A DNA stretch of 61,688 bases, filler included, from Sphacelaria rigidula (GCA_964200075.2; 7 parts of 7 records of this genome joined end to end with filler, not necessarily neighbours in it), one strand, 5' to 3'; positions 3,391-61,619 are shown, numbered from the whole stretch's first letter. The notes: a model not told the origin generated them from the sequence alone. Numbers and translations are program-made.

Positions 3391-6300
3391 GGGGAGGGGG
3401 GGACTGGCGTACGTATTTGTTGCTTGCCTTAGTCGTGTGACCATTGACCACGAATCCCTTTCGACACGGAGCACCGTTTCTACGCCTGATAAAGACACCT
3501 CCGACATTTGGGTGCTCATTGCGTTTCTTTCATACATTACACAAAAAAACCTTTTACATATCTTATCCCTGTCCTGTTTCGCCGTCTGTGGTCGCCATCT
3601 ATCTCCAAGTATGGCCGTCGTTTTTTCGCTACTATCTAATGCATCAAAGAATTTCATGCCACCTTCGTTCAGGTCGCGCATTTCCCCCTTTAACACGTCC
3701 CGTTCCTCCTTGTAAAGTTCACATTCTGCCACTTTAGGAGTTGTGCTCTCTATTGCTTTGCCACAGGGCCGGTTCTGTGCGCCCACTTCCTCCTCCTCCC
3801 GACTACTGATACATATTTTTCTTCTTTCTGGCAGGTCCAGGTCCTTAAGCCGAAATCGCAGTTTCAGATTTTTCGCCGCGTCCATTGGGCCATGCAAATA
3901 TGCTTTTATCCCTATCCCCTCTCTCAACCCCAGTATATCTTCAGGTGATCTTCCTCGTCTACTTCGCGTCTGAGCGCTTATTATTTTCCTCTTATTTCTA
4001 TCATATCTCATACTCTTGTCTTGTACCCCGCATCTTCACCTACGGACAGTATTTTATCGTCGTTTCCTCCTATCTCCTTCTATACTCTGTCGACTTCTCT
4101 ATCCCACGTTATTCCAGCCTGCCCTTTCGTATTTTTCTTCCATACAGCCTTATCAAGTATAGCTGGCAATCTTTTTTTCTGCATGTTCTTCACGCTGAAT
4201 TGCCACCTCAATTTCCTCATGCCTCTGTTTTGAGTTGGTACATTCTCAACTCTGCTTACTCGTCGTTTGAGAGCATGTCAGTATTTTGCTAGCTGCTGCC
4301 ATCTGTACTGTGTCCAACTTCTTCACCAACTTCACGTTCCCCTCCCATACTTCTCCTGCATATTCCAGCTTTGGTACAATCACGTACATCAGGATACATA
4401 TCTTCACCCTACTGTCTAGATGCGAGTCTCTTGAGGATTACGTCCATACGTCCATACTGCCTATCTGTGGCTTACCCTTCTCTATTACTTTATTTATGTG
4501 TGCATCCCAAGAAAGAACAGTTGTTTTTAAATCTCTACGCCAAGGTATGTATACTGGTCCACGATCGGCAGTTCCTCTTCTCCCCACTTCCACTTGAACT
4601 CTACCGGATTTTTTTCATCTTTGTTACGGACAAGTACCGCGCATTTGTGAACGTTCGCTGTCACCCTCCATTTCCTAGTGTATTCTAGCGCCTCGTCTAC
4701 CTGTGTCTGCAATCCTTCCGGTGTTTCTTAAATCCCAACAAAATCATCTGCGAGCTTCAGACCTTATATTGCATCTTCACGCACTTTGACTCCTTGATTT
4801 TCTGTTTCTATTGCTAATATCAGGTCATCAATAAGTATAGTGGGAGGCTCTCAGTAGCATCGGTTGAATAGTGCCAACGACCTATATAATGCCGGTAAAA
4901 TCTCCGGGCACAGCCAGAGCTCGCAGTAGTGCCAACCAGCACTACTAACAGATAACCCTCAGTAGTGCCGGTTTGAACGGTTTTGCACCCTCAATAGTGC
5001 CGGTTCCGGACACACTCACGCACGCCTTACTCCCCACCAACCAAGCACCAGCAGGGGTGCAGCAGGGTACGTGCTGGTGCAGACCTTGCAACGTAGTGAC
5101 ACAACATGCCTTGTGCGGGAGGTGAACTGTGCCTCTCTCTACTTGTGTCGGTAGCCGGTAAGAAGTGAAAAGGGGCGTGGTTCATTCTTTCTCGCTCACT
5201 CCTTTTGGTGGGCGGTATACTCTTTTGTGAGTTTTTTTCCACACCAGATGCCGCACCTTCATAATTGTGTTGGGTGCAGATGTGTCCTTGTTTTTCTCAT
5301 CGGGAAGGTATTTTGGCATGAGCAACTTTTGTGGCCGTACTGCTGCTGTTGTGCTAGTAGGGAACGAAATGATCAACCTGTGGACAGGATCAATCAAGTT
5401 GAATGTGAAAAACAAAAAAACATCGGGTTTAGTTCTGCTATCCCGAAACCTTACGTGACGTATCCTATCGAAACCCCTCGAAACAGAATCCGCTTCCGTT
5501 TTGTGCTTCCGTTGGTCCCACGAAGGCCAAGCGCAGCACTGCACGAACGGACGGTCGTCAATAGTGCCAGAACCGGCACTACTGAGGTATTCAGAGCCCT
5601 CAATTGCACCTGTTTTGGCAATTTTCAGAGTAGTGCCGGTGTCCGTGGTGGGCACGCACCGGCACTACTCAGAGCCCCCCACTGTACCTTGGATAGAGTA
5701 GGTGATATCGTACATCCTTGTGCAACTCCTCGTAAGATATCAAAATATTTCGATATTTCCCCGTCTAGTTTCATGGCACTTTTGGCACATGCTGTCATCT
5801 TCTTCGCCACTCTCCACATATTTCCCCTGATTCCAGTTTCCGACAACTTTTTCTACAGCCCATTTATCCATACTGTGTCATACGCTTTTTGTACGTCCGG
5901 AAAGAAACAGTACGCTGTCAGCCCGGTGTCTTTCCTACCCTGAATAGTCTTACCTAGTGTGTATGCATGGTCTACGCAGCTGCGGTTTGGTCTAAATCCT
6001 GCTCGTCCCTCGCTGATTATCTCTTCCTTTTCTAGCATCGTTCCTACCCTATTGTTCAGAATCTTCAAGAATGTTTTCCCTACCGTGCTTCGCGTTATCC
6101 CTCTATAATTTCCTGCGTCAGCCTTGTCTCCGTTTTTGGAAAGGTTGACGACTACTTATTCTCTTCACCTTTTGGGTGTGTACTCGTTTTCCCATATCCA
6201 GTTGTACAGCATAACCATCATGGTGATCATTCCTTCCCCCCGTACTCCAGAAATTCTTTCACTTTTCCGTCTGCGGCTACTGATTTTCTATTTTTGAGTT

Positions 6301-8413
6301 TAGCTACGCACTCCTTTACTTCATCTCTGGTAAAGTCTCTCTGCAATTCTTTGGAGCCACTACCCTCCAGTTTTGACGTCTCTACATTTGCCTTTGCCCA
6401 CGTGTTTATTTCTTTTTCGAATCCTGTGTCGAACTTCATGTTAGGTTTTGGTGTTCCTAGTTTACGGTAGCGCTCGACTAGCACTTTTCTCTTTCCCTTC
6501 GAAATACTGGTCATTTTACCGTTCTCTGCCCGGAGTGTGGTTATCCCGTTGTCCATCTTTCCTGCCTGTTTTCCCGTTATCCTTTTTATTCCCTACCCAC
6601 ATTCGTTTCATCCCGCCATCGAAATCTTCATTTGTTTTATTCACTACAACTTCCCATACTCCCTTCTTTTTCTTCTGTATCATCTTCCTTACTTCCTTTC
6701 GAGCTTCAGTATACTCTTTCGATCCTGCCGCAGTTTGGCTCGATATGCATCTCGGGTGGGCCTCTCTCCTTACTCTCCCAGCCTCTTTTGCTTCCTCACC
6801 CCACCATTTTACTTACTGCTCTGTTGCATACGATCAGTTTCTTCCCTATGACTTTATTCTCAGTGTTCTGGACCAGCCGCTCCCATCCTTCTATGATCGT
6901 GGCTCCTGCCCGATTTCTTCCCATTTCGGTATTAACTGTACCTACGCGTTCCAACAGCTCGGAAAATTTCACTGCATTCTTGGCCATCTCTATTAGGAAT
7001 TCTTGCTGTTTTTCTTCCATATCTAGTTTATCGATTCTCCATAACTTTCTACCCCGCCTATGTTTTTCAGCTCTCTTCTGTTGGCTTTCTGTTTATATTA
7101 GGCAGTGATCTGTAGTTCTCACGTCCTCCGGGTTTACATGTACTTTCATTTCTTTACTATTCCCATGCTATACCACTATATAGTCATCAAGAGCGGAGCG
7201 TTCTCTTCCGTTTTCGCGGTTTCTGGTCCATGTCCAATGCCCCTCTGGCTCTACTACTCTACCGTTCAGCGTCTTCATCTCGTTATTCCCAGGAACTTCA
7301 GCATTCCTACCCCATTCGTGTTCCTCTTATCTTCCCCGTATTGCCCAATGATATCATCCGGTTGGCCTGCTTTTCCTATCGTTGCGTTCAGATCTCCCAC
7401 TAACATGACCTCCCCTTGCCTTTAATACTTTTGTACATATTTTGCTATCTCTCCAAACCTCCGCTGTATATCGTTCACCCTACTCTTCGATTCTGGCAGC
7501 ATGCAGATGTTCCCTACGCAAAACCCTTTCATTCCCCGCTCCCCTGGCACCCTTACCCATATGCTCTCATCGAATTTCGTGTCGTCGATCACATCGATGA
7601 TGTCACCCAGGTATTTCTTGACTAAAAATACTACTCCCCCCGCTCCCCTGCCTTGGAGGTTCTGTCCCCTCCGCTCTTTCTCTATCCATGCGTACTCTTT
7701 AACTTTGCGTTCGCCTCCTATTTCTCCAGTGACTCTTGAATTTCTACAATATCTAGGTCGCGCTTCCTTACTCGTTCGGCTATCTCCATTGTTCTGCGCT
7801 TGTCTGTGGCGAATCCACACACGTTCCACGATCCTATTCTCAACTTCCTTTCCGAATTATTATCTGCTCTCGTGCTGTCTACTGTTATCTCTCTGTCGCT
7901 TTTATTTCTTCTTTTCCTTGCTTGATAGTTTTTTCCGTTTCGGGTTTGGTCTCTGTCCATTTGCTCCGGGCCGCCCTGTCCCCTCCCCTCCCCCTTCCGG
8001 GCACTTACCTGTTCGTGCCTCTCTTTCCCGCCGTTTGCCCGTGCACTACGTCTTAGATTTGTTTTTCCGTCAGCAACGCACACTCTCCACCTTACCCCTC
8101 TAACCCATGCCGATACCTTACTTGTTTGTATCTTTTCCCATTTCTTGCTCGCGCTCTGTTCTAGTGTGACTCGGAAGTGCTCTCCTTCCCTTTCTACTTT
8201 TCCTGTTGCCAAGCAGTCTATTTCAACTCCATTGCATTTCCTTTCAAAGTCTATTCTCGTAATATCGCTACCGACTCCGAATACCAGCACTACTAGTACT
8301 TTACCCGTCCATTCTTTACTTCTCCATCCGCCCCTCGTCACCGTCTCTCTCTCTATCTCTTTCGAGAGTATCTCCGCTTGTTCGTTTTGACTATTGTGGG
8401 GGGATACAGTCAA
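3391..8413 (-). mobile_element. Near full-length degenerate LINE (APE endonuclease + RT + C-terminal CCHC-like knuckle; RTEX-like) with C-rich tail (family A)
   Basis: APE motif KLRIGSWNVCG...DIV.IQES (~7720-7850). RT motifs GFRPNRSCVDH, DVQKAYDTVW, RGVAQGCTISPTL and LADDFVG (~4735-6000). C-terminal PCG..E....C.LY (~3710-3780). The 3' end reads ...tacgtacgccagt followed by a C-rich run at ~3391-3402. Many stops and frameshifts. Confidence 0.9.
4838..5684. mobile_element. Tc1/mariner-type MITE inserted in the LINE RT domain
   Basis: TIRs (T/C)AGTGGG(A/G)GGCTCT(C/G)AGTAG. TA duplication at 4836-4837 and 5685-5686. Removing it restores RT 'SPTLSKV|LIDDLILAIE'. Subterminal AGTGCC(GGT) repeats at both ends. 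Confidence 0.9.
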
Positions 8414-8727
8414 GGTACTGGCATATCCGAATCCTAGTACTTGTTGGGGGTCAAGGGCCTTTCAGTTATTTTGCTGGCTCACCGACACTCAATAACGCCT
8501 CCAACACGGGCTCGTATCCTGAGGCCAACTTCAACACCCTTGACACAAGTACCCCACATTTGTACCAAGCGATCTTCATGGTAAAACCACCCAGGCGTCC
8601 CATGATCGTATCTTCTATCTTCTGCCCCGCTGCTGTACTAGTTACTTACCTCCAGGGGGGTCATTTTCACCGTGTAAGGTTCAAGGACGGCTTGCATAAC
8701 ACAAGGTCTTACTCATATCGGTATGTC

Positions 8728-8827
8728 NNNNNNNNNNNNNNNNNNNNNNNNNNNNNNNNNNNNNNNNNNNNTTAATTAATTAANNNNNNNNNNNNNNNNN
8801 NNNNNNNNNNNNNNNNNNNNNNNNNNN
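8728..8827. other. Artificial contig linker
   Basis: 100-bp N run containing TTAATTAATTAA (stops in all six frames). Confidence 0.98.
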
Positions 8828-9037
8828 TTGGATGATGACTTGGAATCTGTAGTGATGATGTGGATGATGACATGGACACAGGGGTGATACCCTGATGTGG
8901 TTTATGAAGCCGCCTGGGAGGCACTCCTGAATAATGAGTTGTTGTAAAGGCTGACAACTGAAACCTGAGGCCAGTGGAACTGGGGAGTCCCTCAACAGCA
9001 TAAGACGCTGCAGTGCTAGCAACCTGCTGTGGTCACA
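8828..9037 (+). repeat. 5' LTR (truncated by contig start)
   Basis: Matches 13232-13441 with about 8 differences in 210 bp by eye; ends GTCACA. Confidence 0.95.
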
Positions 9038-11283
9038 ATATCCATATTAGTGCTAGTGCTAGTCGTGCTAGTAGTGCTGTCGTTAGTGACTGCTGGAAAA
9101 TGTTCAGTAGAGAGGAGTCTGGACAGCTTGGGACATACCTTCACGGACGCGTGAGGAGGGTTCAAGCTGAGGTAGCTGCAAAGGTGGCTGGCCCGTGATT
9201 GATCCAGACTGGGGACTTGCTGGAGCTGCGTGCAGCGGGAGTTTATAGGACCCCACGGCTGTTGTGGTGCGGCGACGAAGGCCGGTATGAACTGTGGAGT
9301 TCGAGAAGGTTCAGAAGCCTTCGATTAGGTCCGCTGGGAAATGTCGACTACAGAGGTACCGGCAATAGAGCCAGCGGAGACGACTGTAACCCCAGTTGTC
9401 CTGAGAGAAGAGTTGCGGCCTTCCAGTTAAGGGAATTTGTATTCTGAGTGTGCATCTCGTTCGTTTTATACGAAATACGTGGAATACAAGAAGCGGGTGG
9501 AGCATGCGAATGGGGAGGGTGCGGTAAGGCATCAGGTGGTTTTCATGGCGCAACTCGTGCCTACTCCCCTCCAATACGCCGCCGCAACTGGTTGCGGCGA
9601 TCAGAAAGCATGCTGGGCATACGGCGGGCACTTGCCACTGCTGTGGCCAGGTCGGCCATCACGCGCGCGACTGCCCAACGTCTTCCGGTGGAAAGTCAGG
9701 TCAGTCTCATGCCGCGCGCCATCCGCATCGTTAGCACAATGGCAAAAGACGAGGTAATCGTGATGGCGGCGGCGGCGGCGGATCCTCCAGCGGTGGAGGT
9801 GCACAGTCGAGTTCCCAGTAGCAGCAGCAGCAGCAGGAGCAGCGGCGTCAGCAGGGGTCCGGTTCTGGATCCGGCTCAGCCGCAGGAGCTGCTGCTCCGC
9901 AACGGGCGGTGCAGGCGGGACCTACCACTCTAGTGTCGGGCTCAGTGCCGGCGCCGCCGGCAGCAGAGCAAGGCGAGGCGCCTGCTGCTGAGCCGGCTGA
10001 ATTTCAGCTGAAATTTGGATCCGCTGCTGCGTCGGCCGGAGTACCGCTGGAATTTGGATCTGCGGGCGGGGCTTCGTACCCGCCGGCAGTGCCGGTGATC
10101 CCAGCGGGGGCGTCTATGCCTGCGCCGCACGCGCAGCCGTGGCACCAAGTGGGGATCCCAAACAATCAGTCGGCGGAGCAGGTGCCGGTCGAAAATCAAG
10201 GCAAATATATTCCTGCAGACTTATATCTCCCAAATCAACGGGCGCGGGGAGCTATTGCGGTAGAGGCTAAGTGGGATTCTGGCGACCACTGGATGGGTCA
10301 TGTGAGTCTGTCGGTACAGATTGTAGAGATGTTGGAGCGTCTCCTCCCGGGTGTGCCGCTGCGCACTCTGGTTTCGCTCAGGGCGCGGCAGGCCGTCACC
10401 GCGTCGCGTCAGCATCTTTACGTCATAGAGCGTACTCTTCCGCTGCGACTGACCTTTGATGACTTCCTGGGGGCCGGCGCAGTTACCTCCGATCTCGTTT
10501 GCGATCATGTCGGGGTCGGATGGCGAGATTCTTCTGGGGTTGCCGATGGTTCACGATATTGGAGTCAACGCTCGGCGGTTGTGGGACTCCATGAAGACGC
10601 GGATGTCTCCGCCTGGTCCACGCTTGGAGACCCCACGCCGTTTCGGACAGTCGTCGCGTGAGCTTGTCGGCGGATGCTTTTCAGGAGGATGGAGGGCAGG
10701 TGGCCGAGGAGCGGGATACGGCAGTGGAACGCTTAGTAAAGCGCAGCCGGGAGATAATTATTGATCCGGCGGAAGAGGAGTCCACTCGGAAGCTCGCGCT
10801 GGAGAAGAGCGTGATGGATGCTGGGGCGAAAAGCCTCAGCGTCTCAAAAGCGGAGCGCCTGCGCGGCATATTGCATTGCTGATTCAACGCGTTTCGTCAT
10901 GCGCTGCGGAGTGATCTTCCTACGCGCGTGGAGCTCATGCGGGTTCAGCCAAAACCTGGGGCGTCCGCGGTAAGAACGAAGCCGCGGCGGTAAGATCCAG
11001 TGAAGTCGAGTTGGTTGGCATCGTGCATGGTGGCTCTTTTGGCGCTCGGGTTGGTGTTTCGGAATTCGCAAGCGGGGTGGTCCAGTCCGGATATGGCGTT
11101 TCCGAAGAAGGCTGCATCGTGGACGGAGGTCAGGCTGCAGGTGTGAGCGGCAGCGAAAGATCTGGTGGCTCATGCCGTGACGCTGCTCCATCCTCGTCCT
11201 GATTGTCAGGTGTCAATGTTTCCGGATGCATTTGAGTGCCATTGAGGTAGTTTGGTCATGCAGGTGCTATAGTTGAAATTCAA

Positions 11284-18863: not shown

Positions 18864-19204
18864 TCTCTTCCTTCGTTCTGCTACGTCCTTTTCCTGTTGG
18901 AGATCCTCCAGTAGGGAGTTTCAAAACGGACGGGATGTTGGGACACGTTTGGAAGATCCTCTGGAGGGTTTCCGAGGCTAGCTGAATGGTCGCGTGTGCT
19001 GTCCTGTATTGCCAACATATAGGGTTTGTATAGCAGAGCCTGTTGGAAAGAAATCCTCGTTTTGCCCACTTTCCAAACGATAATTGTTTTAGCAGCCTTT
19101 GCTCTACAAGTCTCATATATTGTGCTGTATTGACAGCATATGGGATCTGTAGAGCAGAGGCTCTTCTTCGAAATAAATCCTCGCCAATTTTCAAAATGAC
19201 GCAA

Positions 19205-21685
19205 AACGATGCGATGAAGACCGGGTGGCTTGCCTCGTGCGTCGTAGCTTTGATGGCGTTTGGTTTAGTGGTGAGGAACATTCAGCCTGTGTGGGTGAGT
19301 CCGGCGATGGCGGTGCCGAAGAGGGACATATTCCGGTTGGTCAGCGACTGTCAGGCGGTGATCGCGCAAGTGGAGCAGTCTCCGGGTTGATGACGAGCCA
19401 AGAAGACATGCGGGAGTTGCTGGGAGTCCAATGCCTCGGTAACTCGGACCTGCTACAGGGGTATTGGCAAATGCTTCTGGCGCCGGGGGCTCAGGAAATC
19501 TTCACAATCGTCACGCCTGACGAGTTGTTCGCGCTTTCTCTTGTCCCTCAGGGCGTGTTGATCGTCACGGTGTATTTCCAAGGTGTGCTGACTGATATTT
19601 TGCGAGATCTAAGCTGTCGAGTGTGGATGGATGACGCTTCCTGTTCGATGAAATATTTGGCCGCTTGGAGAGGGTCGGTCTATTTGTCGCTGCGCATGAG
19701 TGCAACGGTTGCGAAGTCCGCAACCCCTCGGACAGGCAGGATCCGTGTCTGGTGCATTTCCTACTGCTGCGACGGCTGCAACAGCGCCGTCTGCACATTC
19801 GGCGCCGTGGTCTGGGTGTACCGCCGATTTTCAATTATCGATGCCCAGTACTGGAGCATAGCCCTGGCGTCAGGTGACTCTCGGTACCGTCCAGGGTTCT
19901 TGGGTAGGTGTGGTACCTGTCCATCGCAAGGTAGAATGTTTACGCGCAGATTTTCCCTCACCTGGTTCCGTAGGTATTTGACGAAATTCTTGGTAGCTTG
20001 GAGAGTGTTGGTCTGTTCGATTGGAGAGTGTTGGTCTGTTTGTCGCTGCGCATAAGTGCACCTTTTTGCGCGCCAAGTGGTTTTATGTGGTAAGGTGTAA
20101 TCCAAGGGTACCGTTTTGCATGAGCCCGTCCGCATCCAGGGTTTGAGCAATATGCGACGTCCTCAAAGAGCTAGTGAGCTGAGGCAGTTTTGCAGGCGGT
20201 GAATTAGTTGCGGACTTCGCTCCCGTACATGGCGGAAGTAGTTGCGCCGCTTCGTGTGTTTGTGAAACAACTTATGGTCGGGGCTTCGCGTCGGACCAAG
20301 CGGGTGGCGCGTAATCGTATCATTCCGGAAGGCGCTTGGACGGTGGGTCGTGTGCGGGCATGGCGTGCTGCGCAAGATTTGGTGCCGCGCGCGGTTCCGC
20401 TGTATCATCCTCGTCCAGGGTGCGTTGTTCTGATGTGTCCAGATGCTTCGGATTCCCACCGGGGTAGTTTTTTAACACAAGTACCTGTCGCCGAGTTCAG
20501 AAGTGACATTGCGCTCGAAAACATGTCACACGAACCGTTGGCTTTTCTGAGTGATAGCTTCAAGGGTTCACAGTTGCGGTGGGCGACAGTGGACAAAGAA
20601 GGTTTTGCTGTAGTCAATACATTCCGAAGACTAGAGCACTTGCGTCGGGGTGGCGTTCGCATTCACCGATCATCGCAATCCGAAATATATTTTCAACCCC
20701 GAAAAGTGTGTCACATCGATGACGAAGGCCATGGGACAACGGCTTGAACGTCGGAAAGGAGTGCTCGGCAAATATCGGTATGCCATTGAACACATCCCTG
20801 GAGAGCGTAATTGTTAGGGAGTTTTGTTGTCTCGCTGGGTGAAGGTTCCTACCGTGCCTGTTCGTCCTGTTGTCGTGTACAGCCCGTGTGATGCCAATGA
20901 TTCGCTGCCCTCGTTAGATGTCATTCGTACCGCGCAGCGCAAAATCAGTCGACGATGGTGTTCATTCTTTTCCTTCGACTTTAGGTCAAGCTGCGTTGGC
21001 TAACGATGGTTTGTTTCGCGTGCGTGTTGGCAGTAGAGATGTTCTGTGAATTCCGTCGGATGATAAGACTCTACAAACTTGCTTGATGGTGTACGCTCAC
21101 ATGCGATCGGCTGGTCACCGTGGGGGGGGGGCGTACTCCTTTGTTGCTTGCCTTAGTCGTGTGACCATTGACACCATGGGGGGGCGCCGACTCTGTTTCG
21201 TTTGAAAGAATACTGTGTGTGGCCTCACATGGATTCCAACTTTCGCGAGTTCGTTCGCCAGTGCTTGCATCGTGTAGACGCTCGTGCTGGTGCGATTGTA
21301 CCTCGTCCGTATGGCGATACTGTGCATGGTAGTGCGCCAGGGGAAGTTGTTAACTTTGAGTTTCTGTACGTCGGAAGTAGCGAACCTGAAAGTGCTAATA
21401 GTTTGCCCGATGATGAGGATGATTTTCGGTATGTTTTGGTTATCATGAATGATTTCTCCAATTTCGCCTTGTCGGAACCAACGGAGGCTTGCACCGCCGA
21501 GGTTACGGCTAAGCACTTGCTCCATTGATGCAAGACTTTGGGGGTGCCGCGTGTGCGGGTTAGTGATACCGCCACGCACTTCAAGAATCGAGTGATCGCG
21601 CAGCTGAGCGACGCGCTCAAGGTGCAACACCAACTTGCTGTTGCGTATACCCCTTGGTCGAATGGAACTTGTGAACGCATGATGA
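19205..21685 (+). mobile_element. Degenerate Ty3/Gypsy pol (RT, RNase H, integrase)
   Basis: DLLQGYWQM, VPQG, VWMDD, PDASD, WATVDKEGFAVV, and integrase AYTPWSNGTCERM. Related to the element at 8828-13441. Confidence 0.9.
21122..21171 (-). mobile_element. Extremely 5'-truncated family-A retrocopy with poly(C) tail and TSD
   Basis: Matches 3407-3449. Flanked by caccgtggggggg (21116-21128) and caccatggggggg (21172-21184) inside the integrase GHRG codons. Confidence 0.88.
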
Positions 21686-23000
21686 AATTTCACATCGCCT
21701 TTGATCACCAAATTACCTTGAATCGGATCTCCGTCGTCCAACCCACCATTTTCCAGGTGACAACTCGCTCCATCGCTGAGGAAATTGAATTTTATCACCT
21801 CCTCCGGGCGAGTACCATGCATCTTATCCCCACTATGCGCCATATCCTCGTGGGGAGGGGGAATGTGCGCCCCCACCTTGGATTCGCTCACCCGTCGGGA
21901 GGAGAACGTTTCCGGCATTCCCATCACCGCTCTCTCCAAGCTCGCATGCAAACTGCAGTATAGTAACCCAGACGCCACCAAAACTGCAATGCACGACGCT
22001 AACCACCCGGCTTTCATTGGATCGTTGCAATGGGGCTGGACCTTCGCAGCCGTCGCCTGTGGCTGGGGCGGCACCCTCATAGGCTGTACGGCTCCACTCT
22101 CAGGAGCTTCCTCTTCCCTTTCACCTGTATCCTTCTCGCTGTCACAATGAAACGACCACACAGGGATGGTCACCCGCCTAGCCGAAAGTAACTGGGGTTG
22201 TTCACACCGGTCTGCACCGGCACAGCACGCGGGTGTAATTTTTCCAAAGCCAGCGGATACAAATCTACCCCGAGTTCCTTCATAGTCGCCATGGTAAACA
22301 ACGCCACGTCATCGTTGTCAGGCCTGACCGCGAAAGTGATTGGCGACATCTCCATAGCCCCCCACGGCGTTCGCACGCTCACATCAATAGGCACCGTTTA
22401 ATGAGAAACAGTCACGGACGCACCCGTGGCGCTCTGTGCCATTTGCGGTCCATTTTCAAATAATGGTAGCTGGAGCTGGGCGCACCCGAACTGTGAAGAC
22501 ATCTGTTGTTGTAGCAACCCCCCACACTTACGGATGTGAGTGCTGATCCAGAGTCGAGAAAAACGCGAGCCATGAATGAACCAACAGAACCGGGTATAGA
22601 TAGATCGGCGTGTAAGCATTCTGCGCTGCGGTCAACAGGCACCACACCTGCCGAAGAAAAACTCTGGTTAGTGCCTAGAGTCACTTGACGCCGGGGCAGC
22701 ACTTCAGCACTTGACATCGGTGCTTTTATATTCGTCGCAACAGTGAAAGATACACCAGACACGAATCCTGCCGGGCCTATGGGTTGCGAGCCTTCCGCTC
22801 CCGCACTCCCCACCGAAGTATTACCTCCTCCCACATATGTTAGCCGCCCCGACACAGACGAACCTAGACATCTAGAGTCATCACTTGAGAACGCCCTTGA
22901 GGGTACAGTAGCGGCGGAATTACAATTCTCCGTCGCTTGATTTCGTTTTTGACCCCTGCCTTTGCACCCGCATCTCTGGTTGCTCCGACCTTGTCCGCCA
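21686..23000 (-). mobile_element. Degenerate, internally deleted Ty3/Gypsy (protease, RT start, integrase start) in opposite orientation
   Basis: VFLDSGSALT protease motif; 'DPMKAGWLASC' RT start shared with the other two copies; 'HGTRPEEVIKFNFL' integrase piece. Confidence 0.8.
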
Positions 23001-25115
23001 TGACGACCGCCTCGAGTTCCTGACAAATCTCGCTCATTTCCTTGCGCAGCGCCTTTAGCGCTAGGCTTGGGGCAACGTCTTCAAATATGCCCATGGTCTC
23101 CACAATTGTAACATAGGCGAGTGAACAACGCTCTCAAAGTCGGCAGCTGTTCCTGTTGCTTGCGCTCGCTATATTTTGATGTTTCTAACGGTTTATCCCA
23201 AACCAGCTAGGCTTCTGCTTCTTATGCGTTTTCCTTTTTTTTATGCGCGTTTCCCCATTTTTTTCATGTTCAAAACTAAGCATTATGCGCCGATTTGTGC
23301 GTTTTATGGTGAAATATGCGCGACTTATGCGCCTTTGTCGCGTCCTTCTTGAGGCGGTTCCTGTCGGGTTCCTCTGTTTGATGTGAAATATGACACATTT
23401 TTTTTCAATCAGTTTCACATGAACATAAAGTAGCTCAGACACAGCACCATAGCTCTAGTATGATAGGAAGTAAGAATAAGAAAACAAAAAAAGGGAGGGG
23501 AAAGAAGAGGAACAAATACAGAACATAACTATAATTGCAAATAAAAAGACAAAAATAGATGAAAAAAAAAAAAAGAAAAACATAGGAAGAAAAAAGAAAT
23601 TAAGTGAAGTAGGGATGAAAAAAAAAACAGTGACAACATGAAATACATGATAAATGTACAACACAAAAAGCCAAGGCTCACTTCGGCATGCTATTTTTGA
23701 AGTTGGTGACGCTCTCCAAGGTATCCGGCGATCACGGCAATGCACGGTAAAGCTCGGATGGTATGGATCACCCTAGCACTCCTCGGTGAAGGAACCAGCC
23801 ACCTCGATGAGATTGTTCACGAAACAAAGTCCACTGAATGTATTCCCTACAAAATTTATCTTGTTTCGAAACAAGTCGCATAGAGATTATTCGGAACACT
23901 GTGCACACTATCGCCGGTGTAGGCTTATCATCACGGGTCCCTTCCATTATTGCCGAGTTGCGCAAGCTTTTAGATGTAATATATTAAGTTGTGGTTGATA
24001 TTTGTAACGTTCATCAAAGTTTACCGTCGCAGGGGATAGTTCTGGCTGGGGATCGTCTCCAACCACGGCCATCGTATACACCCGAGCCAACCCACAGCAA
24101 CATGCAGGTGTTTCCACTAAGTAGGTATTTAGCAAGTGTTTGAGGGGTAATGTGTATTGATTGTACACACGAATTGAGAAGAGAAAGACAAAAGGGGGAA
24201 ATTATTACTAACAATAAAACGTGTCCGTCCTCCGGGGGGGGAAAGGAGTGTTAGGAAATGCGGCTGTGAAGCTTACTCTCGTCAACACTTGGTATGGTAT
24301 TGTATTTTTATGAAGGCAGTGTGTGGATCGCCGGTACTGCTCACGATAGTTTGGTCTAATATGGAGCGTAGCTGTAGTGCGGTTGCTCCCACTCTTCTCG
24401 ATTGACCGTTCAGCACGGTGGGTTGTTTGGACTGTCTTGCCCGCAAGCGGCACCTTCAACACCATCTTCTGTCTACCCTCCAAAGCAGCTTGTCTGCTTG
24501 CTTGGCTCAAGTACTATTGCGCCGACTCTAGCGATCACGTCAAAGGGGTCCTAGCGACACCTTTCCTAACAGGTTTATTGAGCCTCGGCGTTGGCGTCCA
24601 CGGATCGGACTTTGGAAGAGAGGAAGGCAGCAGCAAAAATCAAGTATATTTGCCGGGAAACAACGTGAGTTGAGTCAAAGTAAAGACGGCACTACACCTG
24701 TGTACGTCTGCAACAGTTTGTCACGAGGTAAGGACGACACTTTCTCCTGTGCGCACCCGGTAACATACATAATTATCGAACAGCGGGGGCAATCGTCGGA
24801 TCCTCCTGGGGGGAAATTGTACGCGTCTACTTTTCAAGTGCAGAGCCGTAGGGCTGTCCGCAACATCCTGCATACCCATATTTTGTCTGAAACTGTCCAA
24901 CAGTGGAAGCTGAACGGCACCTCCGGCGGACGCTGCTGTGGTGGGGGCCTATACCGTGTGCTATTCATCCACATATATAATCATTTTGAGGTACCGACGA
25001 GTCAAACGGCGGTGAGCGAAGCTGGCCGTGTGATGGGGAAGCTATACTTGGACACCTTGGAAACACCCTCCATCTTTACTCGTGAAGTTGGAGCAGAGCG
25101 ACGAACAAGATTCAC

Positions 25116-25702
25116 ATGGCGGACAATGAGGGTATTCGAGGGGTACTGACGCTCTGTTCAAACTTCGATAGCAAGGACAAATCGAGCTTCCGGAAATATG
25201 AAGACAAACTCTGGGTGATCCTGCCCCTCCACCACAATGAGCTACAGAAGGAAAGTAATGAGCGCCAGAATGTTGGAGGTGTCTCTATTAGGAGTAGGAA
25301 CGGTGCTCCGTCTCGAAAGGGATGCGTGGTCAATGGTCAAATGACTAAGGCAAGCAACAAATGAGTACGCCCCCCCCCCCCACCACAATGCAGCCGCAGA
25401 AATTCTGCTAGGGCAGCGAAGACCCAGATCCACCGTAATCAATGATGACCTAACCACCCTGTGGTACGACAACTTCAGTGGCGTGGGATCGTTTAGACAA
25501 TTATCTGTTTAGTGTTCTGTTTTATAGCACGAAAACATCAGCAAACAATACCGTCAGACATCATATGGGGAAAACTCAACAGGATGGGGTCGGGGACGGA
25601 CAAGCAGCGCGGGTAGCGCTCCACAACAGATATGACGGCAACAGCAATGAGGCACGAAGGGAGTTCCATGACAAACTTTACACTACACACGTGGGCAAAT
25701 AG
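25116..25702 (+). pseudogene. Copia-like gag remnant
   Basis: 'WDRLDNYLFSVLFYST...A...V.........DGQAA..AL.NRYD' resembles the Retrotran_gag_2 pattern. Interrupted by a C-tailed insertion. Confidence 0.65.
25240..25381 (+). mobile_element. 5'-truncated family-A retrocopy with poly(C) tail and TSD
   Basis: Ends gagtacg plus ~12 C. TSD ccaccacaatg at 25229-25239 and 25380-25390. Confidence 0.9.
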
Positions 25703-26689: not shown

Positions 26690-27250
26690 CCACAACGTAC
26701 CTACAGTGCTGTAACGAAATAAACACACGATACATGGTTCATCACCCCTTCTATATTCTCTGTCAGGGAGGTATGCACCGTGTTTCACGGTAGGAGACAG
26801 CATACCCCCCCCCCCCCCCCCCCCCCCACCCCCGGCCCCCCCTCTCCCCCGCGATGCGTGGCCAATGGTCAACCGCCTATTAGTNNNNNNNNNNCATGGT
26901 TTCTCCCCCCTTCTTTATTCTCTTTCAGGCGGGGATGCACCTTTGTTCAGTGTAGGACACAGCAACCCCCCCCCCCCCCCCCCCTCTCCGCCCTCCGCAC
27001 CTCCCCCTCTCGATAAGTGGAACCCACAACGTGCTTGGAGTATCGTAACAGGACAGATTCATGGTTCATTGACCCTTGTACGTTTCCCGTTAGGGAGGTA
27101 TGCATAATGTTTCACGGTAGGAGACAGGATACCCCTCCCCCCCCGGCGCGTACAACCGCCGGTGCTCCGTCTCGAAAGGGATGCGTGGTCAATGGTCAAA
27201 CGACTATTAGTAAGGCAAGCGACAGATGAGTACGCCGCCACCTCCCCCCG
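26690..27250 (+). mobile_element. Stack of poly(C)-tailed retroelement 3' ends (three family-C, two family-A pieces)
   Basis: Family C ends ...aggagacagcatac+Cn at ~26805, ~26965 and ~27131. Family-A pieces at ~26851-26884 and 27160-27250. Confidence 0.75.
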
Positions 27251-32249: not shown

Positions 32250-32694
32250 GAGCTCGGAAATGGTACCAGTTATAAGTGGCCATTACCATAACAATGGTGA
32301 TAATGGTAATGGTTACATGAAAATGTGGATAATGGTTTCAAACCATTATTTACCGTGACCGGCTTTATAAGCCGTTACCGGCTACGTATGCTACATGAAG
32401 CCCTTGAAATTGGCCCAAGTTTGACGTATTTTTAGCTCTAGTGAAGTTGATTCGCGTACAAATATGCCTCCGGCACGGCGCCTCCAGCGCCCCCCCCCCT
32501 CTGCCGGGGGGGGGGGGGGGGGGTTTTTGGCGCCGGGCGGCCCCGGTGGGAGACCGCAACCGTGATAACACGTTGTGAGGGCGCGGCTGCGCCGCTGGAT
32601 AACCGAAACCATTATACACCATTTTACTGGTGAATGAGTGCGCTACGCGTAACCACTCAACTGGTTAATGGTTAGACAATCCACTTCCGAGCTC
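32250..32694. mobile_element. MITE in a TA-rich site
   Basis: TIR core GAGCTCGGAA(A/G)TGG / CCACTTCCGAGCTC, flanked by (TA)n; repeated AATGGT/ACCATT motifs. Confidence 0.6.
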
Positions 32695-32761: not shown

Positions 32762-32890
32762 GAGGGGTGTACTCATGATCTTGCGTGTCGTAGTCGTAAG
32801 ATCATTGACCTCGTATCCCTATAAAGCCAGGACGGAGCACGCCGGGCTTTCGCCGGACTAGGCTCGAAATCAATCACCAAGCGCGAAGCG
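32762..32890 (-). mobile_element. Family-B C-tailed retroelement 3' end
   Basis: gagcct.gtccggcgaaa.cccggcgtgctccgtcc...gagtacacccc. Copies at 35135-35208, 41654-41810, 45712-45809 and 52811-52862. Confidence 0.8.
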
Positions 32891-33280
32891 CCGTGATATG
32901 TTCGGCGAGTCGCATGAAGGGTGAACTGCATCCTGCTAAGATTATCTATAATTATCTTGCATATGATTGACAGCCTACAACGAGTAACTTCATTTTCTCG
33001 TATCGCCACTTCCAGAGACAGCCACGGGTTGCACACTGCCTCATGGGCGTCTCACCATATAAACACTACGCAATACGATCATCTCCCTTGCACGGACATG
33101 AGATTCTCCCACCGCACACACTATGATCTAGCTCGATCACCATCATGGTTACCGCAAAAAAAAAAACGAAAGCTGAAAAAGAGCCGGTAATCTGGTTGCC
33201 TACTGTAGCTTACGCAGTGAGTGACGTGTTCGACAGCGTCATCGCCAACCAACACCAACCCCCCGAAAGGGGGTGTTCTT

Positions 33281-33366
33281 TTGTTGTTGAGAAAGCCAAT
33301 CACCACCGAGCTACTTAGTCAGCGCTGACGGAGTAGCTCAGTGGTTATTGGCTTTCTCAACAAAAG
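33281..33366. repeat. Head-to-head palindrome of tRNA-like heads
   Basis: About 42-bp arms centred on AGCGCT (33321-33326); the arm contains A-box TAGCTCAGTGG. A related B-box-bearing fragment lies at 33535-33592 (-). Confidence 0.8.
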
Positions 33367-34725: not shown

Positions 34726-34779
34726 GTATGACGCCTGAAAAAAAGGGCTAGGTGGAATGACTTGCTCTACTCCCTGAGT

Positions 34780-41653: not shown

Positions 41654-41840
41654 GGGGGGGAGGGGTGTACTCATGATCATGCATGTCATAGTCACATGCA
41701 TAGGGGGGAAAGGGGGGGGCGGAGGGGGTGTACTCATGATCTTGCCCCGTAGTCATTAGACCGTCGACATCACATATCTCCAAAGCAGGGACGGAGCCCA
41801 CCGTAATTTTTAAGGACGCACGGGGGGGGGCGGAGGGGGG
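41654..41840 (-). mobile_element. Two stacked family-B C-tailed insertions; the longer one has a G-rich TSD
   Basis: gggtgtactcatgatc at ~41663 and ~41726; ggggggggcggaggggg at ~41712-41728 and ~41823-41839. Confidence 0.75.
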
Positions 41841-45485: not shown

Positions 45486-45821
45486 GACACTTTCGACGAT
45501 AGCCCCCCCCCAAAAAGTGCATGGTTTTGGGAGGGAAAATCTTCACGTAAATCGAAATGGGAAAGACCGAGCACAACGAGCAGCTGGGAATTCCCACGTT
45601 AGGTTCGTTCTAGCCAATGTCGCCAATATGAGGCGCCTCATGCCGCCTGAACCCAAAAAGTAGGCGCTGTATGGCCATTTTTTTCGTGACACTCTTGAGC
45701 TGGTTTGGGGCTGTACTCATGATCATGCTTGCCATAGTCATAAGACCATTGACCTCGCATCCCTACAAAGCCGGGACGGAGCACGCCGGGTTTTCACCGG
45801 ACCAGGCTCGTAGAAAGTGTT
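45486..45821. mobile_element. Second copy of the GACAC MITE (4-bp TSD CTTC) with a family-B insertion in its right TIR
   Basis: Reverse-complement homolog of 11982-12197; CTTC at 45482-45485 and 45822-45825; insert ~45712-45809 at the TIR G-run. Confidence 0.88.
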
Positions 45822-47969: not shown

Positions 47970-48250
47970 GAGGGGAGGGGGACATGAGGGGGAGGGGGGG
48001 GGGGTACTCATTTGTTGCTTGCCTTAGCTCGTTTGATCATTGATCACGCATCCCTTCCGAGACGGAGAAAGGAATGAGGGGGGGGTACTCATTTGTTGCT
48101 TGCCTTAGCTCGTTTGACCACACGCATCCCTTCCGAGACGGGGAAAGGACACGAGGGGGGGGGTATTCATATCTTGCTTGCCTTAGCTCGTTTGACCATG
48201 GATCATGCATCCCTTTCGAGACGGAGAAAGGACACGAGGGGGGGGGGGGG
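47970..48250 (-). repeat. Three tandem ~80-bp copies of the family-A tail separated by G-runs
   Basis: Unit: gga(c)a(c/t)gag-Gn-tactcatttgttgcttgccttagctcgtttgacc...cgagacggagaaa. Confidence 0.85.
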
Positions 48251-48412: not shown

Positions 48413-49806
48413 GGGGTGGGGGGGGGGGGGGGGGGGGGGGGGGATAATCATGTCTTGCTTGCCATAGTTGTTCGACCATTGACCACGCATCCCTTTCGAG
48501 ACGGAGCATCGTTCCTACTCCCGATTGAGACACCTCCAACATTTGCGCGCTCTCCAACGTACGTTTTTTCCATACATTACACATCCCCTCCTGCTTCGCC
48601 GTCTGCGGCCACCATTCATCTCCTAGCATAGCGATCGTTCCACCCCATGTACCAAACGAATTCATTCCACCTTCGTTTACTTCCCGCGTGTCTCCCTCTC
48701 ACGCGCCCCATTCCCTTTTGTGAGTGATGCTACGGTAGGGGTGCACAAATATTTTCCGAGGTTAGAATTGTTGGGAGCCCTTCATCTCATCCAAAGCACG
48801 ACTCGTGAACTATGTGAAAGTTCGCCAGGATTAATATTTCAACGTGCTAGGGATATCCCCGACTGAATTTCCGAGCAGGGATGCCCTGATCTACATTCTT
48901 GTGCATCTAGAATCTTTAGAAGCCCCTGAACCAGACACTATTTCGCGCAAAAAGTGCACTCCTACCGTAGCATTGCTATTGTATAGTTCACATCCTGCCA
49001 CTATATGAGTTGTACTCCCCGTTGCTTCGCAAAAGGGGAAATTCTGTGCACCCACCTCCTCTACGCGACTACTGGTATACCTCCCTCTTTTTATCTGGCG
49101 GGTCCAGGTCACCCACCCGGAATCATCATTTCAATCTTGTCGCGTAGTCCATTGGGCCGTGCAGAGATGTTTTCATTAATATCTCTTATGTCAACCGTGT
49201 ATCCTCAGGTCTCCTTGTCGTCCACTTTCCGTTTTAGCGTTCGTTTCTCTTCATTTCCATCATGTCTCTTACTTCTGTCTTGTACCCCCCACATCCATGC
49301 ATTTGGTCTTGGTTTCTTCGTATTTCCTTCCATTCTCGACGACGCTATCCCACGTCATTACAGCTTGCTCTTACGTCACCTTTTCCCACACGGCCCCATC
49401 AACCATGGCTGGCATCTCTTTCTGAACATGTCCCTTGCGTTATATTGTCATTTCAATTTTCTCATGCCTAATTGCTTCTAGTGGGTAAGTTCCCAATTCT
49501 GCTCTCAATCCCGTAATACTCGTCATTTTTTAGCATCCAAGTGTTTCCTTAGTTAGCTGATGTCGCCTGTACTGTTTCCAGCTGCTTCGCCAGCTCCGCG
49601 TTCCCTTCCCATACTTCTCGTGTATATTCTAGCTTCGGCACAATCACATTCATCAGATTGCGTTGTTAATCGCAGTATCGAGGTGTCAGTCTTTTAAACA
49701 TCACGTCCATCTTGACTATCTGTACATTTCCCTTCCCAATCAACCTGATCACGTGTGCATCCCAAGAACAGCTCTTTCTTAAATCTCTACGCCAAGGTAT
49801 GTATAC
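48413..49806 (-). mobile_element. 5'-truncated family-A LINE (~1.1 kb) with long poly(C) tail
   Basis: Homologous to 3400-4552; G-run at 48418-48443; split by the MITE at 48722-48978. Confidence 0.85.
48722..48978. mobile_element. MITE with 4-bp TSD (TTGT), possibly Academ-like
   Basis: TIR ATGCTACGGTAGG(G/A)GTGCAC; TTGT at 48718-48721 and 48979-48982; LINE colinearity is restored on removal. Confidence 0.8.
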
Positions 49807-61279: not shown

Positions 61280-61619
61280 CGAAAAGGGATAGAGAGCAGA
61301 AGTCATATAGTGGCACAATGTGAACTATACAAGGAGGAACGGGACGTGCTAGAGAGAGAAATGCCGAACGCGAACGAAGGTGGCATGAAATCGTTTGATG
61401 CCTTAGACAGTAGAGAGATAGATGGTGGCCAGAAACGGCGAAACAGGACGGGAATAAGAAATGTAAAAGTTGTTTGTGTAATGTATGGAAGAAACGTCAT
61501 GAGCGCCGGAATGTTGAAGGTGTCTCTATTAGGAAAGGAACGGTGCTCCGTCTCGGAAGGGATGCGTGGTCAATGGTCACACGACCAAAGCAAGCAAAAA
61601 TGAGTACACCCCCCCCCCC
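61280..61619 (+). mobile_element. 5'-truncated family-A LINE with poly(C) tail
   Basis: Homologous to 3400-3760; ends gagtaca plus ~12 C; preceded by a C8-gc run at 61267-61276 echoing the 3' flank. Confidence 0.85.

What the first reader, a model, noticed from the sequence alone, without database searches (positions are those of the whole stretch)
25310..25381. Conserved multibranch RNA fold closing directly onto the poly(C) tail
Seen: the family-A terminus folds as P1 GTGCTC/GAGTAC, P2 CGTCTC-GAAA-GGGATG and P3 TGGTC-NNNN-GAC(T/C)A. The P3 loop varies (aaat, acac, aaac, ttat) while the stem is kept. Family B keeps P1, P2 (CGTCCC/GGGATG with a different loop) and P3 despite different flanking sequence. 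Inference: this is a selected RT-recognition or processing structure. A closing helix followed by C residues resembles a tRNA acceptor end, so tailing by a CCA-type nucleotidyltransferase is a testable but speculative idea (compare tRNA-like 3' ends of retroplasmids and plant RNA viruses).
Basis: partly seen in the sequence, partly recalled or inferred. Interest (0 to 1): 0.75.

Follow-up and report, generated by a model that had tools for sequence, protein, structure and literature searches.

The report
Retrotransposon 3′ end with poly(C) tail
These are the last ~80 bases of an RTE-X-type LINE of brown algae that ends in a run of C's; the proposed small RNA fold is a plausible recognition handle for the element's enzyme, but it also encodes protein and is unproven, and the C tail was already catalogued.

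Summary
The three helices exist as described, with P1 starting at 25303 rather than 25310. The motif is a high-copy repeat.

It is the 3′ end of a non-LTR retrotransposon: a single EN–RT ORF, 5′-truncated copies and target-site duplications. It matches the RTE-X LINEs annotated in Ectocarpus in 2025 as "(C)n 3′, TSD C-rich". "Family B" matches their non-autonomous RTEX-N partners, which share the 3′ end.

The stop codon TGA (25362-25364) lies in the 3′ strand of P1, 5 nt before the C run.

Support for the fold is mixed.
- Against: folding energies are no better than shuffles, and the MFE usually picks a competing helix. Only one clean compensatory change was found.
- For: differences between the coding family A and the non-coding family B fall almost entirely outside the helices (1 of 34 paired vs 15 of 38 unpaired positions).

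The most likely role is a 3′ recognition module for target-primed reverse transcription, with the C tail pairing to G-ending nicked C-rich targets. CCA-enzyme tailing has no support. The finding is of modest interest and is largely a known kind of system.

The parts
25240..25381 (+). 5′-truncated copy of the LINE (last 41 codons, stop, G, C12 tail); 97% identical over 130 nt (25252-25381) to the intact element L098
25231..25239 (+). Upstream target-site duplication ACCACAATG, preceded by CC
   Evidence: exact 9-mer 151 nt upstream of the tail end
25382..25390 (+). Downstream target-site duplication ACCACAATG, directly after the C12 tail
25303..25308 (+). P1 5′ strand GTGCTC
25309..25324 (+). 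P2 hairpin CGTCTC-GAAA-GGGATG
   Evidence: kept with a 9-nt loop in family B
25325..25333 (+). J2/3 linker CGTGGTCAA. Invariant in the 8 family-A rows, and encodes part of the VVNG peptide. It is the 5′ strand of the competing MFE helix.
25334..25347 (+). P3 hairpin TGGTC-AAAT-GACTA with a hypervariable loop
   Evidence: 25342 reads C in about 77% of laid depth in X1 and X3
25348..25362 (+). J3/1 linker containing the conserved GGCAAGC
25362..25364 (+). Stop codon TGA of the EN–RT ORF, overlapping the first two bases of the P1 3′ strand
25363..25368 (+). P1 3′ strand GAGTAC
25369..25381 (+). One purine (G) followed by the (C)12 tail
3396..10096 (-). Long degenerate copy: APE endonuclease, RT, CCHC C-terminal region and tail. 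Putative 11-nt TSD CCGCTGGGATC at about 10097-10107 and 3379-3389.
61284..61619 (+). 5′-truncated family-A copy with a C11 tail
48418..49806 (-). Family-A copy with a C26 tail
47996..48246 (-). Tandem array of the fold plus C run; period 81, 3.1 copies
21122..21177 (-). Copy truncated inside the fold; C7 at its 5′ junction and C10 at its 3′ end
27159..27250 (+). Family-A tail copy lying just after the C-rich tail of another repeat
45704..45815 (-). Family-B (RTEX-N-like) copy inserted into the C run of another repeat
32762..33300 (-). Longer family-B copy; the body aligns with B-type copies from assembly G001
41659..41802 (-). Two degenerate family-B tails

Best explanation
The finding is the 3′ terminus of an RTE-X-clade LINE. 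The element has one EN–RT ORF of about 1,360-1,380 codons. The last ~66 nt before the tail are both the end of that ORF (…NGAPSRKGCVVNGQMTKASNK, stop TGA) and a cis-acting 3′ module, shared with a non-autonomous partner element (family B, RTEX-N-like).

Proposed mechanism:
1. The element RNA carries the module plus a genome-templated C run.
2. The ORF protein recognises the module.
3. The endonuclease nicks C-rich DNA, and the G-ending bottom-strand 3′ end pairs with the RNA C run.
4. Reverse transcription starts within the run. Slippage and variable register give tails of 4 to more than 26 C.
5. Old C tails are themselves good targets, which gives nested and tandem copies.

Shown here: element identity, ORF overlap, TSDs outside the C run, the 3′ end shared with a non-coding partner, differences that avoid the helices, and tandem and C-flanked units.

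Inferred: that the RT reads the fold, that the fold is exactly P1/P2/P3, that priming uses G:C microhomology, and that the tail is templated and slipped rather than added.
For: Retrotransposon identity
- Copies share the C-tail end and are truncated at the other end.
- TSDs: ACCACAATG at 25231-39 and 25382-90, and an 11-mer flanking the 6.7-kb copy.
- RVT_1 hits: E 4.4e-7 and 7.7e-14.
- The intact 1,382-codon frame in L098 has EN and RT and stops at TGA inside GAGTAC.
- Named homologues are from Ectocarpus sp..

Literature
- Supplement 1 of PMC12477816 lists RTEX-1_Ec32 as "single EN-RT ORF; (C)n 3′", TSD "C-rich".
- It lists RTEX-N1 as non-autonomous, with "60 bp 3′ end 83% RTEX-1/RTEX-2" and "can be present in tandem".

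Cis-module
- A vs B45: 1 of 34 paired positions differ against 15 of 38 unpaired (p=1.5e-4).
- A vs L110, from another assembly: 2 of 34 against 18 of 40 (p=1.6e-4).
- B45 vs L110: 1 of 34 against 11 of 40 (p=0.004).
- The B tail has indels of +5 and +1 relative to A. B copies have stops in all frames.
- Wobble-compatible changes occur in P2 (U·G to C-G in B, U-A in L096) and P3 (G·U to G-C in A61, U-A to U·G in L066). One change is compensatory: G-C to A-U in P1 of 48439-48512.

Tail
- Both TSDs begin just after C's.
- 5′ flanks are C-rich, for example C7 at the 21177 junction.
- Hundreds of contigs per run show poly(C) immediately upstream of 25304, and "goes back 70-80" joints.
- 19 of 32 fetched homologous ORF fragments read past the stop. 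18 of those 19 continue proline-rich, meaning CCN codons.
Against: - Folding energy is no better than shuffles in any of 8 copies (z -0.85 to +2.34).
- Within family A plus metagenome copies (8 rows), paired and unpaired columns vary equally: 0.44 vs 0.59 deviations per column, p=0.58.
- The "unpaired" J2/3 is invariant there.
- Only 3 cells show a change on both sides, and one or two of them come from misaligned or non-homologous rows. The alignment was fitted to the structure.
- Most copies are dead on arrival, so their changes are neutral noise.
- The helix partition was drawn after seeing the conserved blocks, so the test is partly circular.
- Copy L027 has GACTAC, which breaks P1 and perfects the competing helix.
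- Peptide blocks APS and VVNG persist at the C-terminus of a 55%-identical relative, and VNG-type ends at 32-36% identity. Coding constraint could explain this.
- The RTE-X assignment rests on matching features and named homologues. It does not rest on an RT phylogeny or on alignment to the published consensus, whose FASTA supplements could not be read.
Confidence: 0.6

Rival explanations
1. The conservation is only protein-coding. The blocks are kept because they encode the C-terminal peptide of the ORF protein, and there is no functional RNA structure.
For: - The ORF runs through the whole fold in intact copies.
- The APS and VVNG blocks are kept in P0004 at 55% identity.
- VVNG/VNG-type C-termini occur in relatives at 32-36% identity.
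- Within family A there is no excess conservation of paired columns.
- The tail window is not more conserved than several other ORF windows in comparisons of metagenome-derived copies.
Against: - Family B has no ORF and carries frame-breaking indels in the P2 loop and in J3/1. It still keeps both strands of P1, P2 and P3 nearly unchanged in two assemblies.
- The codons spanning the P3 loop change the amino acid between copies that keep the C-terminal frame: QMT, LMT, LMA.
Confidence: 0.1
2. There is a functional fold, but with a different closing helix. GCGTGGTCA (25324-25332) pairs with TGAGTACGC (25362-25370) around P3, and P2 is not formed.
For: - This helix, or part of it, is in the MFE of the family-A-type copies.
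- The G-to-C change in L027 makes it a perfect 9 bp.
- GAG to GAT in copy 48439-48512 turns its G·G mismatch into G·U.
Against: - In B45, 3 of its 8 pairs are broken, by my reading of the sequences.
- In L096, GGTCA becomes GGAAA with no compensation.
- Model R2 scores below R1 on 8 of 10 held-out copies.
Confidence: 0.15
3. The end is tRNA-like and the C's are added without a template. The fold would be processed at the base of P1, then C-tailed by a CCA-type nucleotidyltransferase or by the RT.
For: - A closing helix is followed by one purine and then C's in most copies.
- Tail length varies from 4 to more than 26.
- Many contigs show units that begin at 25303-25306 directly after a C run (tables 5 and 7).
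Against: - ARAGORN finds 0 genes in the window.
- There is no Rfam family at gathering score, and the best local E-value is 0.95.
- 15 unpaired nt precede the P1 3′ strand, so there is no acceptor/T-arm minihelix.
- The tail ends at the TSD with no terminal A.
- C-rich TSDs, and microsatellite tails in related RTE/RTEX LINEs, point to templated tails.
- From general knowledge, not tested here: CCA enzymes add CCA, not C10-30.
Confidence: 0.04
4. The C run is target DNA. The element inserts site-specifically into (C)n microsatellites and carries no tail of its own.
For: - C7 lies at the 5′ junction of copy 21122-21177.
- C-rich sequence lies upstream of B copies.
- B45 sits inside the C run of another repeat.
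- The paper notes "(C)n termini/TSD" for RTEX-2.
Against: - Copy 25240-25381 has C12 only at its 3′ side, inside a non-C TSD.
- The 6.7-kb copy likewise has its C-rich tail inside an 11-nt TSD.
- So at least part of the run travels with the element.
Confidence: 0.1

Closest known systems
RTEX-1_Ec32 / RTEX-2_Ec32 (RTE-X LINEs) and RTEX-N1/N2_Ec32 of Ectocarpus. Source: PMC12477816, Genome Biol 2025; I read passages of the main text and supplement 1, part 1.
   Same: - Single EN–RT ORF.
- (C)n 3′ tail.
- C-rich target duplications.
- Non-autonomous partners of about 600 bp sharing about 60-100 bp of 3′ end.
- Occurrence in tandem.
- The closest named proteins to the element are from Ectocarpus sp..
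   Different: - Not aligned to those consensus sequences, because the FASTA supplements were unreadable. Identity of family is therefore inferred.
- What I read of the paper says nothing about an RNA fold, or about the ORF ending inside the shared 3′ module.
Stringent-type LINE/SINE pairs such as eel UnaL2/UnaSINE1 and zebrafish L2-type LINEs. Sources: PMC1636434 and PMC4176376 (search listing and abstract starts only); review PMC3747384 (passages).
   Same: - LINE and partner share a 3′ tail.
- A stem-loop lies near the 3′ end, followed by short repeats where reverse transcription starts.
- The RTE and CR1 clades dominate such pairs.
   Different: - Here the module is a putative three-helix junction rather than one hairpin.
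- It lies inside the ORF instead of in a 3′ UTR.
- The repeat is a C homopolymer.
- There is no experimental evidence for this element.
RTEX and RTE LINEs with microsatellite tails, for example (CA)n, (CAA)n and (CCAT)n in green-algal RTEX, and (CAA)n in RTE-1_Ec32.
   Same: The 3′ end consists of a simple repeat rather than poly(A), and the element has the same single-ORF EN–RT layout.
   Different: The repeat unit is one base (C). The targets are correspondingly C-rich.
tRNA-like 3′ ends of the Mauriceville retroplasmid and of plant RNA viruses.
   Same: A helix closes next to 3′-terminal C residues, and a reverse transcriptase or replicase would start there.
   Different: - No tRNA-like detection.
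- No acceptor/T-arm stack.
- C10-26 instead of CCA.
- A chromosomal LINE with TSDs.

Membership tests
RTE-X clade LINE (RTEX-1/2_Ec32-like) | Single ORF with an N-terminal APE-type endonuclease followed by RT | tested here: met
   L098 has a 1,382-codon open frame. P0001 carries PF03372, PF14529 and PF00078. RVT_1 hits.
RTE-X clade LINE (RTEX-1/2_Ec32-like) | (C)n 3′ terminus | tested here: met
   C4-C26 follows GAGTAC(R) in window and external copies. 18 of 19 read-through ORF fragments continue proline-rich.
RTE-X clade LINE (RTEX-1/2_Ec32-like) | C-rich target-site duplications | tested here: inconclusive
   Only two TSDs were recovered, ACCACAATG and CCGCTGGGATC. Both are preceded by C's and are not themselves C runs. 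Flanks are often C-rich.
RTE-X clade LINE (RTEX-1/2_Ec32-like) | RT-domain phylogeny placing it in RTE-X, or alignment to the published consensus | not testable with these tools
   No reference RT set was available, and the consensus FASTA supplements were unreadable.
Stringent-type LINE with partner non-autonomous element | The 3′ end is shared between the autonomous LINE and a non-coding element with an unrelated body | tested here: met
   Family B in the window and 8 B-type copies in assembly G001 share the terminal ~66 nt and nothing upstream. B has stops in all frames.
Stringent-type LINE with partner non-autonomous element | A conserved RNA secondary structure in the shared tail, supported by covariation | tested here: inconclusive
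   91.3% of cells are paired, but there is 1 clean compensatory change and z is about 0. Differences avoid the helices.
Stringent-type LINE with partner non-autonomous element | The tail is required for retrotransposition | not testable with these tools
   Needs a retrotransposition or TPRT assay.
tRNA-like structure / CCA-adding-enzyme substrate | Recognisable tRNA-like fold | tested here: not met
   ARAGORN finds 0 genes in the window. There is no Rfam hit at gathering score, and the best local E is 0.95, to an unrelated lncRNA model.
tRNA-like structure / CCA-adding-enzyme substrate | A helix stacked directly 5′ of the acceptor 3′ strand (T-arm equivalent) | tested here: not met
   15 unpaired nt (25348-25362) precede GAGTAC.
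tRNA-like structure / CCA-adding-enzyme substrate | Untemplated 3′ C/CCA addition on the RNA | not testable with these tools
   No RNA holder was listed, and all runs were available only as contigs.

The most novel reading that the evidence does not exclude
The ~75-nt fold is a self-contained mobile module. Its RNA would be cut out at the base of P1, tRNA-like-processing style, and given an untemplated C tail by the RT or by a CCA-type enzyme. Such minimal RNAs would be reverse-transcribed head-to-tail, producing the abundant (C)n-fold-(C)n units and tandem arrays.

A milder variant: because the stop codon sits inside P1, the terminating ribosome hands the new ORF protein directly to its own 3′ module. 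That would be a built-in cis-preference.
Probability: 0.06. Interest if true: 0.75.

Novelty: new member of a known kind. Interest (0 to 1): 0.3.

Why it matters
If the fold is real, it would be the recognition handle of one of the most abundant mobile-element systems in brown algae. The Ectocarpus study reports RTE-X families in thousands of copies and a non-autonomous RTEX-N1 family as the single most abundant TE.

It would also be a compact case in which one 66-nt stretch serves three roles: the protein C-terminus, the stop codon and the RT-binding RNA. The C homopolymer tail with C-rich targets mirrors L1's poly(A)/T-rich logic with a different base pair. That makes it a useful natural comparison for how LINEs couple tail, primer and target choice.

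Practically, this repeat breaks assemblies: family-B copies are cut by scaffold gaps at about 35210 and 52870. It also seeds C/G homopolymer runs across the genome.

Tried and rejected
- No whole genome is held for the window.
- Earlier findings of this scan: none.
- The protein atlas search on a neighbouring ORF gave no usable hit.
- Sequencing runs: no RNA holder listed. All four laid runs were contigs, so RNA ends, strand and expression could not be read. No contig spanning an empty site of the 25240-25381 insertion was listed.
- The metagenome scan returned 91 stretches, of which only 3 were real copies. The rest matched only the pattern itself.
- The viral-contig scan gave 0.
- The genome-contig scan gave 2 algal contigs inside bacterial MAGs. 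Searching those two assemblies with the CM found no further copies.
- Divergent LINE fragments in G001 (L100-L109) had no tail hit at E up to 1. Many may simply lack their 3′ ends.
- Nucleotide sequences of the divergent protein relatives (P0004, P0006-P0009) could not be fetched, so synonymous-site conservation of the VVNG block is untested.
- Reading poly(G) on the other strand as a 5′ start was rejected. Truncation is at the other end, the ORF points toward the C run, and the TSD follows the C run.
- Literature searches found no description of an RNA fold for (C)n-tailed RTE-X elements. The search tool cannot match "poly(C)" literally, so a miss is possible.
- The consensus FASTA supplements of PMC12477816 could not be read.

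Full report
WHAT IS THERE

At 25303-25381 the sequence reads as follows:
- P1 5′ strand GTGCTC, 25303-25308.
- P2 CGTCTC-GAAA-GGGATG, 25309-25324.
- A 9-nt linker CGTGGTCAA, 25325-25333.
- P3 TGGTC-AAAT-GACTA, 25334-25347.
- A 15-nt linker, 25348-25362.
- P1 3′ strand GAGTAC, 25363-25368.
- One G at 25369, then C12 at 25370-25381.

The fold starts 7 nt before the stated start of 25310.

The motif is a repeat. Its first 22 nt occur 8 times at up to 3 mismatches, against 0 in 100 shuffles. A profile built from six copies finds 16 places in the window at E<0.01, on both strands. C or G runs of 10 or more are also far over-represented: 101 overlapping C10 matches against 0.05 expected.

IT IS THE 3′ END OF A LINE

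Copies share the end next to the C run and stop at different points on the other side. The copy at the finding has 135-142 nt, the one at 21122-21177(-) about 55 nt, and others more than 330 nt to several kb.

The copy at the finding is bounded by an exact 9-nt target-site duplication, ACCACAATG, at 25231-25239 and 25382-25390. The C12 run lies inside the duplication.

The long copy 3396-~10096(-) has these features:
- Degenerate APE-endonuclease, RT (Pfam RVT_1, E 4.4e-7) and CCHC-type C-terminal pieces.
- A putative 11-nt duplication, CCGCTGGGATC.

A pattern scan of metagenome contigs returned 91 stretches, of which 3 were true copies. A scan of prokaryote assemblies found 2 algal contigs inside MAGs. 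One of these, L098, holds a full element with an uninterrupted 1,382-codon frame.

The protein search found a 1,360-aa relative with endonuclease and RT domains. It also found three relatives named as Ectocarpus sp. proteins. The runs holding the window are labelled with one coded organism and "algae metagenome".

ALREADY CATALOGUED

The 2025 Ectocarpus TE survey is PMC12477816. I read passages of the main text and supplement 1, part 1. It lists:
- RTEX-1_Ec32: "single EN-RT ORF; (C)n 3′", TSD "C-rich", 5,867 bp.
- RTEX-2_Ec32: "(C)n termini/TSD".
- RTEX-N1_Ec32: 607 bp, non-autonomous, "60 bp 3′ end 83% RTEX-1_Ec32/RTEX-2_Ec32", "can be present in tandem".
- RTEX-N2_Ec32: 188 bp, with a similar 3′ tail.

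The main text calls RTEX-N1 the most abundant single TE family. Family A therefore fits RTEX-1/2 and family B fits RTEX-N.

I could not align to their consensus sequences because the FASTA supplements were unreadable. The assignment is by features and by named homologues.

In every copy whose C-terminal frame is intact (L017, L027, L098), the ORF runs through the entire fold. It ends …RSRNGAPSRKGCVVNG(Q/L)MTKASNK, stop. The TGA is the TGA of AAATGAGTAC.

The window copy translates identically: …NGAPSRKGCVVNGQMTKASNK*VRPPPP. There is effectively no 3′ UTR, and the stop codon (25362-25364) overlaps the P1 3′ strand.

Of 32 homologous ORF fragments fetched from the 2,072 hits to the last 200 residues:
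- 13 end at this stop.
- 19 read through it, and 18 of those 19 continue with a proline-rich stretch. That is the translated C tail.

IS THE FOLD REAL?

Evidence against:
- Folding energies of 8 copies are indistinguishable from dinucleotide shuffles: z = 0.02, 0.27, 2.34, -0.85, -0.66, -0.43, -0.75 and -0.71.
P3 appears in 5 of 8.
- In family-A-type copies the MFE prefers a competing helix, GCGTGGTCA with TGAGTACGC.
Only 3 cells change on both sides, and inspection leaves one clean case, G-C to A-U in P1 of copy 48439-48512. The others sit in a 5′-truncated or misaligned row.
- The shuffle controls look favourable (6 of 500 and 1 of 500), but the tool warns that related sequences and fitted alignments inflate them.
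- Among 8 family-A rows, paired and unpaired columns vary equally (p=0.58), and the J2/3 linker is invariant.
- Most copies are dead insertions, so their substitutions say little about selection.

Evidence for:
I scored copies not used in training.
- R1 beats R2 in 8 of 10. Scores (R1/R2/R3 bits): B45 57.8/46.3/47.8; B32 43.2/34.4/39.1; B41 26.0/23.1/18.0; L096 29.7/25.8/23.7.
- The exceptions are L097 and the degraded unit at 48247.
- The strongest result compares family A with the non-coding family B, segment by segment:
  - A vs B45: 1 of 34 helix positions differ against 15 of 38 loop or linker positions (Fisher p=1.5e-4).
  - B45 vs L110: 1 of 34 against 11 of 40 (p=0.004).
- B's changes include a +5 insertion in the P2 loop and a +1 in J3/1, which destroy the reading frame. 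B copies have stops in all frames.
- The codons across the P3 loop change the amino acid between copies that keep the C-terminal frame (QMT, LMT, LMA), while the stem is kept, including one U-A to U·G change.

Caveat: the helices were chosen from conserved blocks, so this test is partly circular. Discrete protein-binding sequence blocks would give the same pattern.

The persistence of the peptide blocks APS and VVNG in a 55%-identical Ectocarpus relative fits either RNA or protein constraint. So do the VNG-type ends in relatives at 32-36% identity. Without the DNA I could not tell which applies.

THE TAIL

Tails run from 4 to 26 C in the window. In many contigs they extend more than 16 C beyond position 25381 (table 7).

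A purine separates GAGTAC from the C run in most copies: G in family A, A in family B and in copy 61540. It is absent in the tandem units and in L095.

Both recovered duplications start right after C's in the target. A bottom-strand primer ending in G could therefore pair with the RNA's C run, as T-ending primers do on L1 poly(A).

Several observations point to C-rich targets:
- 5′ junctions often abut C runs (C7 at 21177; C-rich sequence before B copies).
- B45 sits inside the C run of another repeat.
- A tandem array of fold plus C run lies at 47996-48246, with period 81 and 3.1 copies.

Laying contigs of four runs on 25100-25520 placed 96,650, 72,896, 37,713 and 3,105 contigs on the stretch, with word depth thousands of times higher over the tail (25235-25384) than over its flanks. 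It showed many "goes back 70-80" joints from 25375-25381 to 25302-25308. It also showed hundreds of loose ends per run (383/350/318 in X1/X3/X4, 55 in X6) in which poly(C) directly precedes 25304.

So units bounded by C runs and starting at the base of P1 are common. Old C tails look like preferred targets, or the units spread as arrays. I cannot tell which.

Because the TSDs lie outside the C run, at least part of the run is carried by the element and is not target DNA.

THE CCA IDEA

ARAGORN finds nothing in the window. Rfam has no match at gathering score, and the best local match has E=0.95 to an unrelated model. The 3′ strand of P1 is preceded by 15 unpaired nt rather than a stacked T-arm-like helix.

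Related RTE and RTEX LINEs end in other simple repeats, such as (CAA)n and (CA)n. That makes a templated, slippage-prone C repeat the economical reading.

No RNA 3′ ends could be examined, so untemplated addition is unlikely but not excluded. The sharp unit boundary at the base of P1 is the one observation that keeps a processing model alive.

MECHANISM AND VERDICT

It is followed by a templated (C)n tail that pairs with G-ending nicked DNA at C-rich sites to start target-primed reverse transcription.

The element, its tail, its C-rich targets and its tail-sharing partner are known. What may be new is the specific fold and its complete overlap with the ORF end. I found no description of either in four literature searches, but neither is proven here.

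I rate interest as modest.

Noticed in passing
window 26715-27144 (+): A different repeat (…GGTAGGAGACAGCATA plus C8-C23) occurs three times in a row. It has a 6-bp hairpin (ACCGTG…CACGGT) about 18 nt before its C run. It is interleaved with truncated family-A tails (26853-26879, 27159-27250). This looks like nested insertions into poly(C) tails, and it shows that (C)n tails are not tied to the P1-P3 fold.
   Followed up: partly
window 80-99 (+), 44188-44208 (-), 52790-52803 (+), 32490-32523: Further long C runs (C20, C21, C14) follow unrelated sequences. A head-to-head pair, C10…G18, lies at 32490-32523. Only 6 of 19 loci with C/G runs of 10 or more belong to families A or B.
   Followed up: no
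window 11999-12007 (+), 12172-12180 (-), 45503-45511 (+), 54099-54105 (+): A repeated motif …TTCTACGATAG + C7-9 + AAAA belongs to another repeat family. Family-B copy 45704-45815(-) is inserted exactly in such a C run.
   Followed up: partly
window 45770-45800 (-), 32830-32860 (-); L110, L112: Family B has an extra hairpin just 5′ of P1, with a GAAA-type loop. Its inner pair is U-A in B45 and C-G in B32. The window stem CCGG/CCGG becomes UCGG/CCGA in the G001 copies. Both are compensatory changes.
   Followed up: partly
window 48247-48320 (-): The fourth tandem unit is strongly depleted of G and C (GC 0.36; many C-to-T-type differences from the consensus). It looks like deamination-type decay of one unit only.
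   Followed up: no
window about 34367-34729 and 52032-52403: Two copies (76% identical) of another repeat. On its minus strand it begins with a tRNA-like head (…GTGGCTCAGTTGG…), so it is possibly a tRNA-derived SINE.
   Followed up: no
window about 35210-35300 and 52870-52960: Scaffold gaps (runs of N around TTAATTAATTAA) cut family-B copies in the P2 region. The assembly breaks at this repeat.
   Followed up: no
window 18015-18920 (-), 19177-22308: There is a fragment of a different APE-type endonuclease ORF, plus RT/integrase-like fragments of LTR retrotransposons. The window is a TE graveyard.
   Followed up: no
L098 (reverse strand), about 560-640 nt from the upstream end of the contig: Upstream of the intact element lies a degenerate tail-like sequence in antisense orientation (GTGCTCCGTCTC…GGTCAATGG…CATGAGTTC). 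It lacks a recognisable P2 3′ strand and P3.
   Followed up: no
window 37347-38978 (-): A 543-codon open frame with a DUSP domain (Pfam E 4.6e-9). It is probably a host gene exon next to C-rich tracts.
   Followed up: no
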